Sequence record: PV189402.1
Direction: 5' to 3' (one strand)
Origin: Escherichia phage vB_EcoP_phi345
Length of the DNA: 62,385 nucleotides
Shown: positions 15,001 to 18,000 of the stretch, one piece after another
How the letters are laid out: every line of letters starts with the position of its first letter
Numbering within the stretch: the stretch's first letter is position 1
Position numbers: made by a program

Positions 15001-18000
15001 ATAACTGGAAAAGAACTCCTTATGATCGACCGATTTATACCACATCCACTGGTGCTACAGGAAATAAAATATATTCCTGTGAGCATTATTCCGGCGGTGC
15101 AACATGGGATATTCGAAAGCCGTATATAGATAAGGTCTTGGTTATTAATACATCAGTATATGATTAGTTGAAGCGAGTCTTTAATATTCATTTAAAATGT
15201 CTAAAAAGATGTATTATTAAAAAGTTTAGCGTGTTATCTGAATACAGGATATCTTAAATGAAGAGTATAGCAACACTGGTTGTGTGTGCAATCTCCGGGA
15301 TTGCCTGTGTAAATTTATCTGCACATGCAGCAGAAGGAAACCATACAATTTCTCTGGGGTATGCGCACTTTCAGTTTCCGGGACTGAAGGATTTTGTAAA
15401 GGATGCGACTGCTCATAACAGGGAGACTTTCAGTCATTTCGTCAACAGAAACTACTTTTCTTCATTGGGCGAATATACAGATGGTCGGGTCAGTGGATAT
15501 GAAGGCAAGGATAAAAATCCACAGGGCATTAATATCAGGTATCGCTACGAGATAACGGATGATTTTGGCGTTATCACCTCTTTTACATGGACGCGTTCTC
15601 TCACTAACTCACAGACATTTATTGATGTGCAGTCAGCCGATCATACCAGGAAGATTAAGAATCCGGCAGCTTCTGCCAGAACGGATATCAGGGCGAATTA
15701 CTGGAGTCTGTTAGCGGGGCCTTCATGGCGGGTTAATCAGTACATGAGCTTATATGCGATGGCAGGGATGGGCGTTGCTAAAGTTAGCGCTGACCTGAAA
15801 ATTAAGGACAATATTAACAGTAGTGGCGGATTTTCTGAAAGCAACAGCACGAAAAAAAACTCCCTTGCGTGGGCTGCAGGTGCACAGTTTAACCTGAATG
15901 AGAGTGTTACACTGGATGTGGCTTACGAAGGTTCCGGCTCTGGCGACTGGCGCACGAGTGGAATTACTGCTGGCATTGGCCTGAAATTCTAACCTGTATC
16001 CGGTAACCGTTTACTACCCGCTGTGATGGCGGGTTTTTTATTGCCCGTACAGGGCAAAAACCGTAAATTATGCGTGGGTGCCTTTCGGCTGATGGCTGGA
16101 GGGTGAACCTGAAGGCCTGATGTGGAAAGGCCCCGAGTCAACTTAACGTTAACCCGAGGCCCTAACACTTCGTACCTTGACAAGTAGAAGGTTAGCGCCT
16201 CTCCACTCAGGAGGCAAGCGCTATGTCGCAAAAATCGCTTATCACCGTCACAATTTGTATGACGGTTATCTTCACCATCTGGATGTTACACGGCTCGTTG
16301 TGTGAGTTCCGGCTGAATTTGTGGGGAGCGGAGTTTGCGGCGTTCTTACAGTGTAAGCAGTAGGAAAACCGCGGCGGGGACGAAAGTCCCCGTCAACTGG
16401 TTGCTGAGGTTCAGCCGATATGGCACCCGTTTCAGGTGAGAGAATGAACGATAAAATTCTCCGGTATATGCAGCGTGTGGTGAGAAATTCCCGCAACCCT
16501 GAATTTATGAATGAAGTTAAAGACGCCTGCCTTAAAAAGCAGGCGTTTTGTTTTGAGGCACCTGATGGCTTTCTGGTGCTGCGTTCTGTGCTCAGTGCTG
16601 ATGGTATCCCTTATGTTCTGGTGTTGCTGGGCGTGTGTACGGGGAGTAACAGTGTTGAGCGTTATCTGCCGGAGGTGAAGACATTAACCCGTCTGGCTGG
16701 CGGACGTTGGGCTGAATTTCATACGGCAAGGCGGGGATTTATCCGGCTGGGAAAACGTCTGGGCTTTGAGCGAATGCCGGATGATGAGGATGGCTTCATG
16801 GTGTTCAGGATAGCGGTCTGACTGCCACAGTTTTCATCATCGTGTTTAAACCAACATTGCAATTCACATTCTGACCCTGCTCCGGCAGGGTTTTTTTATT
16901 ATCCAGGGGGCCATTATGGGTGGAAGTAAAGGTGGTGGTGATACCAAAGTAAAACCAACAGCAGCGCAAATAGCACAGGAAGAAGTGGCCTGGAAAGGGT
17001 GGCAGGATTACAAAAATATCCTCCGCCCGGCTGAAGATAACTTCATGGAAAAGGTCGATGACCTGAACAGTGAGCAGCAGTACGACAATATTGCTGGCAC
17101 CACAAATCTGGGGTATCAGAAACAGTTTGGCGAAGCACGGAAGGAGCTGGCGGGTAATCTTGCTCAGTCCGGTGTTGACCCGTCCAGTGGTCGCTTTAAC
17201 GCGGTAATGAATGCGAACCAGAGTGATCAGGTAACCGGGCAGATTGACACAACCACACGGGGGCAGGTATCGCAGGCAGATAAGTATGTTGCCGGGCTAC
17301 AGGATGTTGCAGCTCTCGGTTCAGGTCAGAAGGCGGATGCGTTACAGAGTTTTAACTCGCTGGCAGACAGCAGTCTGGCAAAAGCTAAATCGGACGCACA
17401 GGCTGCGTTTACGAAACAGCAGGGGCGAGCCTCTCTTGTTGGCGCTGGTTTGGGTGCGGTAGGTGCATATGCGATGCATAAGGCTGGTGGTAGCGGAGGA
17501 AGTGGCGGTGCTAAAACACCTGGCACCGGCGCTAATGCCATTCAGTATCAGGCTCAGAACTGGAGACTGTGATTATGGAGTACGGTAAATACGAAACACT
17601 TGCGAGATACGGTTATACCGGAGCAGCCCGCCCTCAGGGGGACTGGCAGACATCCGCAGCGCTGACCCGCCAGCAATACGACGACTGGCGCACCAGATAT
17701 TTACCCCGTGTAGCAAGGCTGGCTGACCTTGGCGAGAACAACAGCCTGATGAATGCACAGCTTGCCCGGGTGGGCGGCCTTGCCACTTCCAGTCTCCGTA
17801 CAGCGCAGATGGCGCAGGATAACCAGATGGCGAGATACGGGGTAAGCCGCCCGGATAATCCCGACAGTAATACGCTGGGGTTACGTAATGCCCTGGCAAT
17901 TGCTGGCGCGAAAAATGGTATCCGTGAAGCCGAACAGGATCGCCAGATGAATATTCTGACGGGGGCTTCTGCACCGGCAAGACAGAAACTGAGTGTTGGC

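What the first reader, a model, noticed from the sequence alone, without database searches (positions are those of the whole stretch)
16080..16420. Hok/Gef-like type I toxin locus inserted next to lom in the late region
A 46-aa ORF (16223-16363) with a perfect AGGAGG RBS encodes MSQKSLITVTICMTVIFTIWMLHGSLCEFRLNLWGAEFAAFLQCKQ: one TM helix followed by the Hok-family signature SLCE-x-R...G-x-E-x-AAF. It sits in a GC-rich, structured about-340-nt segment bracketed by strong terminators (16017-16040 and 16875-16898), and the 5' end (TCGGCTGA, 16085-16092) is complementary to the 3' end (TCAGCCGA, 16411-16418), reminiscent of the fold-back pairing in hok mRNAs. It is below the 60-aa cut-off of the supplied ORF track, so easy to miss. 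A phage-borne hok/sok-type module could act in lysogen maintenance, phage defence or persistence.
Basis: partly seen in the sequence, partly recalled or inferred. Interest (0 to 1): 0.7.

Follow-up and report, generated by a model that had tools for sequence, protein, structure and literature searches.

The report
Known Hok toxin module beside lom
This is a real hok/sok-type toxin–antisense-RNA cassette carried by a Shiga-toxin phage just after its lom gene, but it is already annotated, catalogued and reported as toxic, so the only fresh angle is that it seems to lack the usual "mok" leader reading frame.

Summary
The window is a 933W/Sp5-type Stx2a phage. ORF 16223-16363 encodes a 46-aa Hok/Gef peptide (Pfam PF01848 33.2 bits, cutoff 22). 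It sits in a ~353-nt hok-type mRNA (16076-16428) whose 5' end pairs with its 3' end. A Sok-like antisense RNA is predicted at 16182->16126, colinear with the annotated sokW of phage VT2-Sakai.

It is not new. RefSeq calls it "Hok/Gef family protein" or "MokW-like host killing". The exact CDS is entry 72_1589 of a 2025-26 Hok catalogue, which reports it as toxic on overexpression. The cassette occurs in 197 phage records and about a third of complete E. coli genomes.

- It is a different locus from the published hokW-sokW (36% identity), which this phage lacks.
- No mok frame is conserved in 51 homologues. The hok SD is sequestered directly, and an in-silico refolding relay might replace mok coupling.
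- The Sok-tail target is hypervariable (37% vs 3% in the CDS).

The biological role here is untested. Interest is low; novelty: already known.

The parts
16041..16069 (+). Putative hok promoter: -35 TTGCCC (16041-46), 17-nt spacer, -10 TAAATT (16064-69)
   Evidence: Read from the sequence. The -10 (TAAATT/TAGATT) is conserved in alignment A2 and lies 7 nt before the conserved GGGTGCC start. It aligns with the equivalent stretch upstream of hokW. The consensus scan found no promoter at its own threshold, so this is inferred.
16076..16428 (+). Full-length hok-type mRNA (~353 nt). The diverged copies share homology over exactly 16056-16428.
   Evidence: Rfam RF01794 model position 1 aligns at 16076. 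BLAST homology with the 75-82% identical copies spans query positions 17-389, which is 16056-16428. Fold z = -5.84.
16076..16092 (+). tac-like 5' element (GGGUGCCUUUCGGCUGA)
   Evidence: It pairs with 16411-16428 in the full-length fold, with 92.8% of cells paired across 51 sequences. It pairs with 16111-16134 in the nascent and truncated forms.
16111..16134 (+). Internal alternative partner of tac (ucb-like box, GUGGAAAGGCCCCG...)
   Evidence: RNAalifold consensus pairs columns 44-58 with 91-104, kept in 49-50 of 51 sequences. The 60-nt 5' hairpin folds at -32.4 kcal/mol, z = -4.75. The pairing probability is 0 in the full-length form and has a median of 0.76 in the truncated form.
16126..16182 (-). 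Predicted Sok-like antisense RNA (~57 nt): variable 5' tail (16182-16164), 16-bp terminator hairpin (16163-16127), then UUU
   Evidence: The annotated sokW ends (AP000422 60019-60089) map through alignment A4 to window 16182 and 16126. The hairpin folds at -31.3 kcal/mol, z = -5.8, with 92.7% of cells paired in 32 sequences. It is not shown to be transcribed.
16189..16217 (-). Sok-like promoter: -35 TTGCCT (16217-12), 17-nt spacer, -10 TAACCT (16194-89)
   Evidence: The -10 is invariant, the -35 TTG is conserved and the spacing is fixed in alignment A3. The same arrangement (TTGCCT-17-TAACC) appears in hokW, where the paper's promoter-less sokW primers alter this -10 (primers YO-421 and YO-597).
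16164..16182 (+). Sok-tail target (specificity) segment in the hok leader
   Evidence: Mean pairwise difference is 0.37 among 21 Stx-phage copies, against 0.028 for the CDS and 0.011 for tac, with 8 distinct variants per clade.
16156..16200 (+). Alternative target hairpin: GAGGCCCUAAC ... GGUUAGCGCCUC, with the Sok target in its loop
   Evidence: It is in the RNAalifold consensus (columns 129-144 with 167-178) and in the truncated-form fold. The GAGGC/GCCUC pairing probability is ~0 in the full-length form and has a median of 0.67 in the truncated form. GAGG occupies the position of the mok SD of hokW.
16195..16222 (+). Hairpin sequestering the SD (anti-SD GCGCCUCUCC paired with GGAGGCAAGCGC); the SD AGGAGG is at 16209-16214
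   Evidence: It is in the full-length MFE. It folds at -10.8 to -17.1 kcal/mol in 13 of 14 sequence variants and at -6.6 in one. The SD unpaired probability in the full-length form has a median of 0.01.
16223..16363 (+). hok-type toxin gene, 46 aa (Hok catalogue id 72_1589; RefSeq WP_000078907.1)
   Evidence: Pfam PF01848 33.2 bits, gathering score 22. PHROG 251 85.8 bits. RefSeq annotation. The exact CDS is in Table S2 of the catalogue. pN/pS = 0.32.
16373..16394 (+). 3' stem-loop (GGCGGGGAC-GAAA-GUCCCCGUC), the likely stop point for 3' trimming
   Evidence: RNAalifold pairs 362-370 with 377-385, including compensatory changes (AU:29/GC:22 at one pair; AU:23/CG:20/GC:6 at another). It is analogous to the protective last stem-loop of truncated hok mRNA (PMC9841398).
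16411..16428 (+). fbi-like 3' element (UCAGCCGAUAUGGCACCC)
   Evidence: It pairs with 16076-16092. Homology with the diverged copies ends exactly here.

Best explanation
This is a hok/sok-type type I toxin-antitoxin cassette (Hok cluster '72', 46-aa subfamily), carried as a moron between lom and an unknown-function gene in a 933W/Sp5-type Stx2a phage.

Shown or directly supported:
- The peptide belongs to the Hok/Gef family, and the catalogue reports it as toxic when overexpressed.
- Its mRNA (16076-16428) folds so that the 5' tac element pairs with the 3' fbi element.
- The hok Shine-Dalgarno sequence is buried in a local hairpin.

Inferred by homology with sokW and R1 hok/sok:
- A constitutive antisense promoter (TTGCCT-17-TAACCT) makes a ~57-nt unstable Sok-like RNA (16182->16126).
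- Slow 3' trimming back to the 16373-16394 stem-loop removes fbi. tac then switches to the internal box at 16111-16134. A hairpin forms that presents the variable Sok target (16164-16182) in its loop.
- While Sok is present it pairs there, and the duplex is destroyed (RNase III in the characterised relatives).
- When Sok synthesis stops (prophage loss, induction, or host shut-off by another phage), the trimmed mRNA is translated. The peptide inserts into the inner membrane and depolarises or kills the cell.

One difference from canonical hok: no mok leader frame is conserved. Coupling is probably replaced by an RNA relay in which GAGGC (16156-60) captures the anti-SD GCCUC (16196-200). Sok would block this relay by covering GAGGC.
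For: Family membership:
- Pfam HOK_GEF scores above its gathering threshold and PHROG 251 matches strongly. The nearest NCBIfam model is HokA.
- RefSeq and phage records annotate the gene as Hok/Gef family, MokW-like host killing, or small toxic polypeptide.
- Identical CDS is entry 72_1589 in the list of tested Hok sequences. 42 of 45 were toxic, and the three non-toxic ones are other ids.
- All conserved Hok residues are present (read against the sequence).
- pN/pS = 0.32, and 50 of 51 homologues keep an intact 46-47 codon ORF; one has a stop at codon 46 (45 aa).

RNA anatomy:
- Rfam RF01794 matches full length on the hok-sense strand, E = 2.7e-6.
- The locus is colinear with the hokW/sokW locus.
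- tac/fbi: z = -5.84 and 92.8% of cells paired.
- The SD hairpin forms in the sequence variants.
- The 3' stem-loop shows compensatory changes.
- The antisense promoter is invariant, and a terminator hairpin follows it.
- The Sok-tail target is hypervariable.
- An in-silico conformational switch occurs in 50 of 50 sequences.

Functional precedent: hokW-sokW in Sp5 (PMC8621323).
Against: - The Rfam score is below the family's gathering score (37.9 vs 59; canonical hokW scores 113.5).
- No transcript data for either RNA were examined.
- The promoter scan found nothing at its threshold.
- Covariation in tac/fbi and in the Sok hairpin is weak, because most positions never vary.
- In the truncated form the predicted SD exposure rises only from a median of 0.01 to 0.07, so the proposed relay may not be enough on its own.
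- The toxicity result comes from a preprint and used an artificial SD and promoter.
Confidence: 0.85

Rival explanations
1. The locus is a canonical, mok-coupled hok/sok system. A cryptic mok (non-canonical start codon, or the window's TTG ORF at 16177-16305) is translated through the SD hairpin, and Sok blocks its initiation, as in plasmid R1.
For: The window has a 42-codon TTG ORF that starts inside the Sok target and runs through the hok SD. GAGG, in the position of the hokW mok SD, is invariant. R1 needs mok translation up to the hok SD. The weak predicted SD opening in the truncated form leaves room for coupling.
Against: The TTG ORF is present in only 5 of 51 distinct homologues. 29 have no overlapping upstream ORF at all, and the rest have ORFs with different starts (-103, -130, -28, -23, -5). 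All 51 have an in-frame stop 18-54 nt before the hok ATG and no in-frame start after it. The TTG has no SD at a usable distance, since GAGG lies 17 nt upstream.
Confidence: 0.2
2. The cassette is an inactive relic: a hok gene that lost mok and is never translated from its native mRNA. It persists only by hitch-hiking in prophages.
For: mok is absent. Predicted SD exposure is low even after truncation. Several chromosomal hok loci of E. coli K-12 are known to be inactivated (my own knowledge; Pedersen and Gerdes 1999).
Against: The ORF is intact in 50 of 51 homologues, with pN/pS = 0.32. It has a strong SD. Both promoters, tac, fbi and the 3' stem-loop are conserved, and the cassette boundaries are exact in unrelated prophage types and genera. 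The Sok-target segment shows diversification, which is hard to explain without an active antisense interaction. The peptide is reported as toxic.
Confidence: 0.1
3. It is simply the published hokW-sokW locus of Sp5/933W.
For: Some phage records label it 'MokW-like host killing'. It comes from the same phage family as Sp5.
Against: HokW is 51 aa (MKQQKAM...DYESEK) and lies about 13 kb away on the other strand in VT2-Sakai (59815-60089, against 46830-47232 for the lom-adjacent locus). Identity is 36% over 42 aa. The window contains no hokW sequence.
Confidence: 0.01
4. It is a toxin-only lysis or membrane accessory moron with no antisense partner, expressed with the late genes by read-through from lom.
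For: It lies in the late region. HokW assists lysis on induction. No transcript evidence for a Sok RNA was examined here.
Against: A strong terminator separates it from lom. It has its own conserved promoter-like -10 and a conserved transcript start. The antisense promoter is invariant and a terminator hairpin sits at the sokW-equivalent position. The fold-back architecture serves delayed activation, not simple late expression.
Confidence: 0.05

Closest known systems
hokW-sokW of Sakai prophage 5 / phage 933W (Takada et al. 2021, PMC8621323)
   Same: It is carried by the same phage family. The RNA layout is colinear: -10, GGGUGC start, GAAAGCCCC box, Sok terminator arm, AGGUUAGC, GGCAAG, ATG and a 3' GC stem-loop. 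The antisense promoter has the same architecture, TTGCCT-17-TAACC. Both toxins are in the Hok family.
   Different: It is a different locus, about 13 kb away in Sp5 and on the opposite strand. The peptides are 36% identical (46 vs 51 aa). hokW has an in-frame MokW extension and about 20 more leader nucleotides, and this locus has neither. Rfam scores are 113.5 vs 37.9 bits. The window's phage lacks hokW altogether.
hok/sok of plasmid R1 (paradigm; Le Rhun et al. 2022, PMC9841398)
   Same: Shared features: tac/fbi 5'-3' closure, an alternative tac/internal-box pairing after 3' trimming, a protective 3' stem-loop, a short antisense RNA against the leader, and a single-TM toxin with the LCE motif.
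   Different: In R1 the sequestered SD is that of mok, and hok translation depends on mok translation. Here no mok is conserved and the hok SD itself is sequestered. The peptide is 46 aa rather than 52.
HokA of E. coli K-12 (NCBIfam NF007290)
   Same: It is the best-scoring named Hok model (38.4 bits, E = 9e-10). The two group next to each other in the catalogue's alignment.
   Different: The score is far below the equivalog cutoff (89 bits). The catalogue places HokA in cluster 93 and this peptide in cluster 72.
aapA/IsoA type I systems of Helicobacter pylori
   Same: The toxin's own SD is sequestered by mRNA folding, with no leader ORF, and is activated by 3' processing. PMC9841398 draws this contrast explicitly.
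   Different: The peptide family and organism are unrelated. The resemblance is one of logic only and was not tested here.

Membership tests
Hok/Gef toxin family (Pfam PF01848) | Profile match above the curated gathering score | tested here: met
   33.2 bits against a cutoff of 22, E = 4e-8, residues 8-44 on profile positions 6-42 of 42. PHROG 251 85.8 bits.
Hok/Gef toxin family (Pfam PF01848) | Conserved residues of the Hok logo (M1, C16, T18, L30, C31, E32, E41; C/Y48) and an N-terminal TM helix | tested here: met
   The list comes from the catalogue. Here they are M1, C12, T14, L26, C27, E28, E37 and C44, read from the sequence. The hydrophobic stretch is residues 6-22.
Hok/Gef toxin family (Pfam PF01848) | Toxic to E. 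coli when expressed | not testable with these tools
   Literature only. The identical CDS, 72_1589, is in the tested set, and the three non-toxic ids are others. The source is a preprint, and expression used an artificial SD and promoter.
hok/sok type I TA locus (R1 paradigm) | tac/fbi long-range closure of the full-length mRNA | tested here: met
   MFE closure, z = -5.84. 92.8% of cells paired against 27-45% for slid controls, with 3 pairs changed on both sides. Pairing probability is ~1.0 in 47 of 50 sequences.
hok/sok type I TA locus (R1 paradigm) | Alternative pairing of tac with an internal box after 3' truncation (conformational switch) | tested here: met
   In silico only. The pairing probability is 0 in the full-length form and has a median of 0.76 in the truncated form. 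The helix appears in the RNAalifold consensus.
hok/sok type I TA locus (R1 paradigm) | Overlapping mok leader frame whose translation is coupled to hok | tested here: not met
   All 51 homologues have an in-frame stop 18-54 nt upstream of the ATG. No overlapping out-of-frame ORF is conserved, and the window's TTG ORF occurs in only 5 of 51. Non-canonical starts cannot be excluded.
hok/sok type I TA locus (R1 paradigm) | Cis-encoded antisense Sok RNA against the leader, with its own promoter and terminator | tested here: inconclusive
   The sequence features are present and conserved, and they map onto the annotated sokW. Transcription was not examined.
hok/sok type I TA locus (R1 paradigm) | [quoted passage not shown] | tested here: met
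   The stem-loop at 16373-16394 has compensatory pairs (AU:29/GC:22 at one; AU:23/CG:20/GC:6 at another).
hok/sok type I TA locus (R1 paradigm) | Sok-dependent RNase III cleavage, with unstable Sok and stable hok mRNA | not testable with these tools
   Shown for R1 and partly for hokW. Not tested for this locus.
Rfam RF01794 (sok / hok leader) | Covariance-model score at or above the gathering score (59 bits) | tested here: not met
   37.9 bits, E = 2.7e-6, full model length, + strand. Canonical hokW scores 113.5 bits. It is a diverged relative, not a member by Rfam's criterion.
hokW-sokW (Sp5) | Same gene (sequence identity and position) | tested here: not met
   36% identity over 42 aa, and a different position in VT2-Sakai. 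The hokW primers and probe sequences are absent from the window.
HokA (NCBIfam NF007290 equivalog) | Score at or above the equivalog cutoff (89 bits) | tested here: not met
   38.4 bits.

The most novel reading that the evidence does not exclude
The 46-aa 'cluster 72' hok cassettes form a mok-less branch of the hok/sok family. In it, translational coupling has been replaced by a purely RNA-based three-step relay. First, 3' trimming frees tac. Second, tac captures the internal box. Third, the former mok SD (GAGGC) is released and captures the anti-SD, which opens the hok SD. Sok acts by covering GAGGC and the adjacent hypervariable loop. That loop diversifies, so that several co-resident prophage copies do not cross-regulate.
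Probability: 0.35. Interest if true: 0.45.

Novelty: already known. Interest (0 to 1): 0.22.

Why it matters
As a discovery it matters little. The gene is annotated in RefSeq and in phage records, and the exact sequence has been catalogued and reported as toxic.

It is still useful for three reasons:
- It corrects a likely confusion. 933W/Sp5-type Stx phages can carry two different hok modules. The studied one (hokW-sokW, which aids lysis and release) is absent from this phage, so the lom-adjacent module is its only Hok system and has never been studied functionally.
- The apparent lack of mok offers a natural test of whether leader-peptide coupling is dispensable in the hok family.
- The hypervariable Sok target among near-identical prophages is a clean example of antisense specificity diverging where several copies share one cell. 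That is relevant to prophage stability and induction in EHEC.

Tried and rejected
- Identity with the published hokW-sokW was rejected. The primers and probes are absent from the window, Sp5 carries both loci at different places, and identity is 36%.
- A second hok gene elsewhere in the window was sought with tblastn, and none was found.
- A conserved mok was sought in-frame and out-of-frame and not found. A mini-ORF ending at the invariant TAG (GTG-ATA-GGT-TAG) exists only in the P2-like clade, by reading alignment A2.
- An 'empty site' (lom directly followed by the downstream ORF) in related phages was not found. The insertion claim therefore rests on the portable cassette boundaries.
- The sigma-70 consensus scan returned nothing in 15900-17000. 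Both promoters are called by eye and by conservation.
- Covariation tests for tac/fbi and for the Sok hairpin showed high pairing but few compensatory changes, because the columns are mostly invariant. They support conservation but do not prove structure.
- Pfam and NCBIfam gave nothing for the downstream 125/133-aa ORF; PHROG 610 matches it but has unknown function. It is not part of the cassette, since it is absent from the P2-like copies.
Both were rerun.
- No paper describing the RNA regulation of this particular subfamily was found. T1TAdb itself could not be consulted.
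Full report
**Observation.**
- The 46-aa ORF lies at 16223-16363 on the + strand.
- AGGAGG lies at 16209-16214, 8 nt upstream of the ATG.
- Terminator-like hairpins with T-runs flank the region at 16016-16034 and 16873-16892.
- The octamers TCGGCTGA (16085-92) and TCAGCCGA (16411-18) are complementary.

GGGUGCC (16076-82) also pairs with GGCACCC (16422-28). The minimum-free-energy fold of 16076-16432 closes the two ends (-152.2 kcal/mol; z = -5.84; 0 of 100 shuffles as stable). 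'GC-rich' holds only relative to the upstream tail-fibre and lom region: 53% against 37-48%.

**What the window is.** The 400-bp segment is 100% identical to Stx2a-converting phages PA28, vB_EcoS_P27 and Stx2a_F723. It is 96% identical to 933W and VT2-Sakai (Sp5). Rfam finds AsxR, STnc100, three tRNAs and the lambda cIII thermoregulator elsewhere in the window, as expected for such a phage. The gene order is tail fibre, two small ORFs, lom, this locus, then a 125/133-aa ORF of unknown function. That order is the same in 184 phage records.

**The peptide.**
- Pfam HOK_GEF matches above its gathering score (33.2 vs 22 bits, E = 4e-8).
- PHROGs places it in phrog_251, 'MokW-like host killing', in the moron category (85.8 bits).
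- In NCBIfam the nearest named model is HokA, but far below the equivalog cutoff (38 vs 89 bits).
- RefSeq already names the product 'Hok/Gef family protein' (WP_000078907.1). Phage records call it 'MokW-like host killing', 'small toxic polypeptide' or 'prophage host toxic membrane protein'.
- Relatives of 59-98% identity, almost all exactly 46 aa, occur in E. coli, Shigella and Salmonella. E. albertii and Citrobacter also carry them.
- Between the Stx-phage clade and the P2-like clade, pN/pS is 0.32. Of 51 distinct homologues, 50 keep an intact 46-47 codon ORF, and one has a stop at codon 46.

**Prior knowledge.** A 2025-26 preprint (Escalera-Maurer et al., bioRxiv 10.1101/2025.08.07.668861) catalogued 1264 Hok peptides and found hok enriched in prophages. 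Its Table S2 lists the experimentally tested sequences. That table contains entry 72_1589, whose CDS and peptide are identical to the window's. Of the 45 homologues tested, 42 were toxic, and the three non-toxic ones carry other ids. So this exact peptide has been reported as toxic on arabinose-induced expression. All residues the preprint lists as >80% conserved are present here (M1, C12, T14, L26, C27, E28, E37, plus C44). The authors state that they did not analyse Mok, Sok or mRNA ends.

**Not hokW.** The one experimentally studied Stx-phage hok system is hokW-sokW of Sp5 (Takada et al. 2021, PMC8621323). Its sokW RNA neutralises HokW with help from RNase III and Hfq, and the locus speeds lysis and doubles phage release after mitomycin C. 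The paper's primers show that HokW is MKQQKAM...DYESEK (51 aa). Those sequences are absent from the window. In VT2-Sakai, hokW, mokW and sokW are annotated at 59815-60089. The lom-adjacent locus sits unannotated at 46830-47232 on the other strand. The two peptides are 36% identical over 42 aa, and the window has no other hok-like gene. Sp5-type phages can therefore carry two different hok modules, and this phage carries only the unstudied one.

**RNA anatomy.**
- Rfam RF01794 is modelled on the hok-sense leader. It scores 113.5 bits on hokW. It matches the window full length at 16076-16234 on the + strand, but below the gathering score (37.9 vs 59 bits, E = 2.7e-6).
- In copies only 75-82% identical, homology spans exactly 16056-16428, from the -10 region to the last base of the 3' fold-back partner. 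These copies lie in P2-like prophages next to ogr, in a Xuanwuvirus, and in Salmonella, E. albertii and Citrobacter. This defines a portable 373-bp cassette.
- I aligned 51 distinct copies (A2). The tac/fbi closure forms standard pairs in 92.8% of cells, against 27-45% for slid controls.
- The 3' stem-loop at 16373-16394 has clear compensatory changes.
- The hok SD is buried in a local hairpin of -10.8 to -17.1 kcal/mol in 13 of 14 sequence variants, and -6.6 in one.

**The antisense RNA.** On the minus strand there is a conserved -35 (TTGCCT), a 17-nt spacer and an invariant -10 (TAACCT). These are followed by a conserved ACTTG, a variable ~18-nt tail, a 16-bp hairpin (-31.3 kcal/mol, z = -5.8) and UUU. 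A pairwise alignment with the hokW locus is colinear throughout. It maps the annotated sokW ends onto window 16182 and 16126. The hokW promoter has the same TTGCCT-17-TAACC arrangement, and the paper's promoter-less mutant changes that -10. The leader segment opposite the Sok tail (16164-16182) differs at 37% of positions among Stx-phage copies. Those copies differ by only 2.8% in the CDS and 1.1% in tac. That pattern fits an antisense specificity determinant, and genomes hold up to nine copies.

**What differs from the paradigm.** In R1, hok translation requires translation of the overlapping mok frame at least up to the hok SD. The sequestered SD there is that of mok (GAGG) (PMC9841398). In hokW, the annotated mokW is an in-frame extension. 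In this subfamily:
- All 51 homologues have an in-frame stop 18-54 nt upstream of the hok ATG, with no start after it.
- No out-of-frame overlapping ORF is conserved. The window's TTG ORF (16177-16305) occurs in only 5 near-identical sequences, and 29 sequences have none.
- Compared with hokW, the leader lacks about 20 nt and the mok ATG, although the GAGG is retained.

**A possible replacement for mok coupling.** Folding suggests an RNA relay.

| Feature | Full-length form | After removing the 3' 32 nt |
|---|---|---|
| tac-fbi pairing probability | ~1.0 | not applicable |
| tac with internal box 16111-16134 | 0 | median 0.76 |
| GAGGC (16156-60) with anti-SD GCCUC (16196-200) | 0 | median 0.67 |
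| SD unpaired probability | median 0.01 | median 0.07, higher in 50 of 50 |

In the truncated form the Sok target sits in the loop of the new hairpin. The rise in SD exposure is small, so this last step remains a hypothesis. Sok would block the relay by covering GAGGC. Direct SD sequestration without a leader ORF resembles the aapA/IsoA logic, a contrast that PMC9841398 itself draws.

**Verdict.** The locus is a hok/sok-type type I toxin-antitoxin cassette in a moron position. It is already annotated, catalogued and reported as toxic, so it is not a discovery.

Three points remain open:
- whether the Sok-like RNA is made;
- how translation is controlled without mok;
- what the module does for this phage (addiction, help with lysis as for hokW, or exclusion of other phages).

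None of these could be tested here.

Noticed in passing
window 27836-35470 (compare L005 = AP000422.1 58592-61641): The segment that carries hokW/mokW/sokW in Sp5 is missing from this phage. Only its flanks match: 97% at 27836-28081, 92% at 35115-35470, and a 46-bp piece at 32707-32752. The content in between is different.
   Followed up: partly
window 38612-38728 (+): An ALIL pseudoknot (Rfam RF01497, 120.9 bits), the frameshift signal of IS3-family transposases. It suggests an insertion sequence inside the phage genome.
   Followed up: no
window 49996-50191 (+): isrK, the C4 antisense RNA and its a1/b1 targets (RF01394, RF01695, RF03163) lie together. This is a P1/P7-type C4 immunity RNA module in a lambdoid Stx phage.
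   Followed up: no
window 55595-55854: STnc100 (207.7 bits, +) lies directly beside AsxR (88.1 bits, -), downstream of three tRNA genes at 53940-54186. This is the expected stx2-region sRNA cluster.
   Followed up: no
window 32113-32202 (-): A match to sRNA-Xcc1 (RF02221, 65.4 bits, above the gathering score), a family described from Xanthomonas. It is unexpected in this context.
   Followed up: no
window 16523-16546, inside ORF 16444-16821: A bidirectional terminator-like hairpin (10 bp, 6 GC) with T-runs on both strands sits inside the coding region of the unknown-function gene (PHROG 610) just downstream of hok.
   Followed up: no
window 16041-16057: The perfect palindrome TTGCCC-GTACA-GGGCAA overlaps the putative hok -35. 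It is shared only by the Stx-phage copies, because homology with the other copies starts at 16056. It could be an operator, or a leftover of the lom terminator region.
   Followed up: no
L006, L007, L009: E. coli-type hok cassettes (76-100% peptide identity) appear on contigs labelled Xanthomonas pisi, a Planococcaceae MAG and Vagococcus sp. These are most likely enterobacterial contamination in those assemblies.
   Followed up: no
L054 (IMG/VR UViG_2617271340_000018), codon 46: One Stx-phage copy has CAG changed to TAG at the last codon, giving a 45-aa peptide. The catalogue also lists C-terminally extended variants (ids 1590).
   Followed up: no
L004 3169-3309 (E. coli B-1109) and H111 (Xuanwuvirus P884B11): The same cassette sits at the very end of P2-like prophages, right after ogr and next to the host serS. 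This is a second recurrent moron position for this Hok subfamily.
   Followed up: partly
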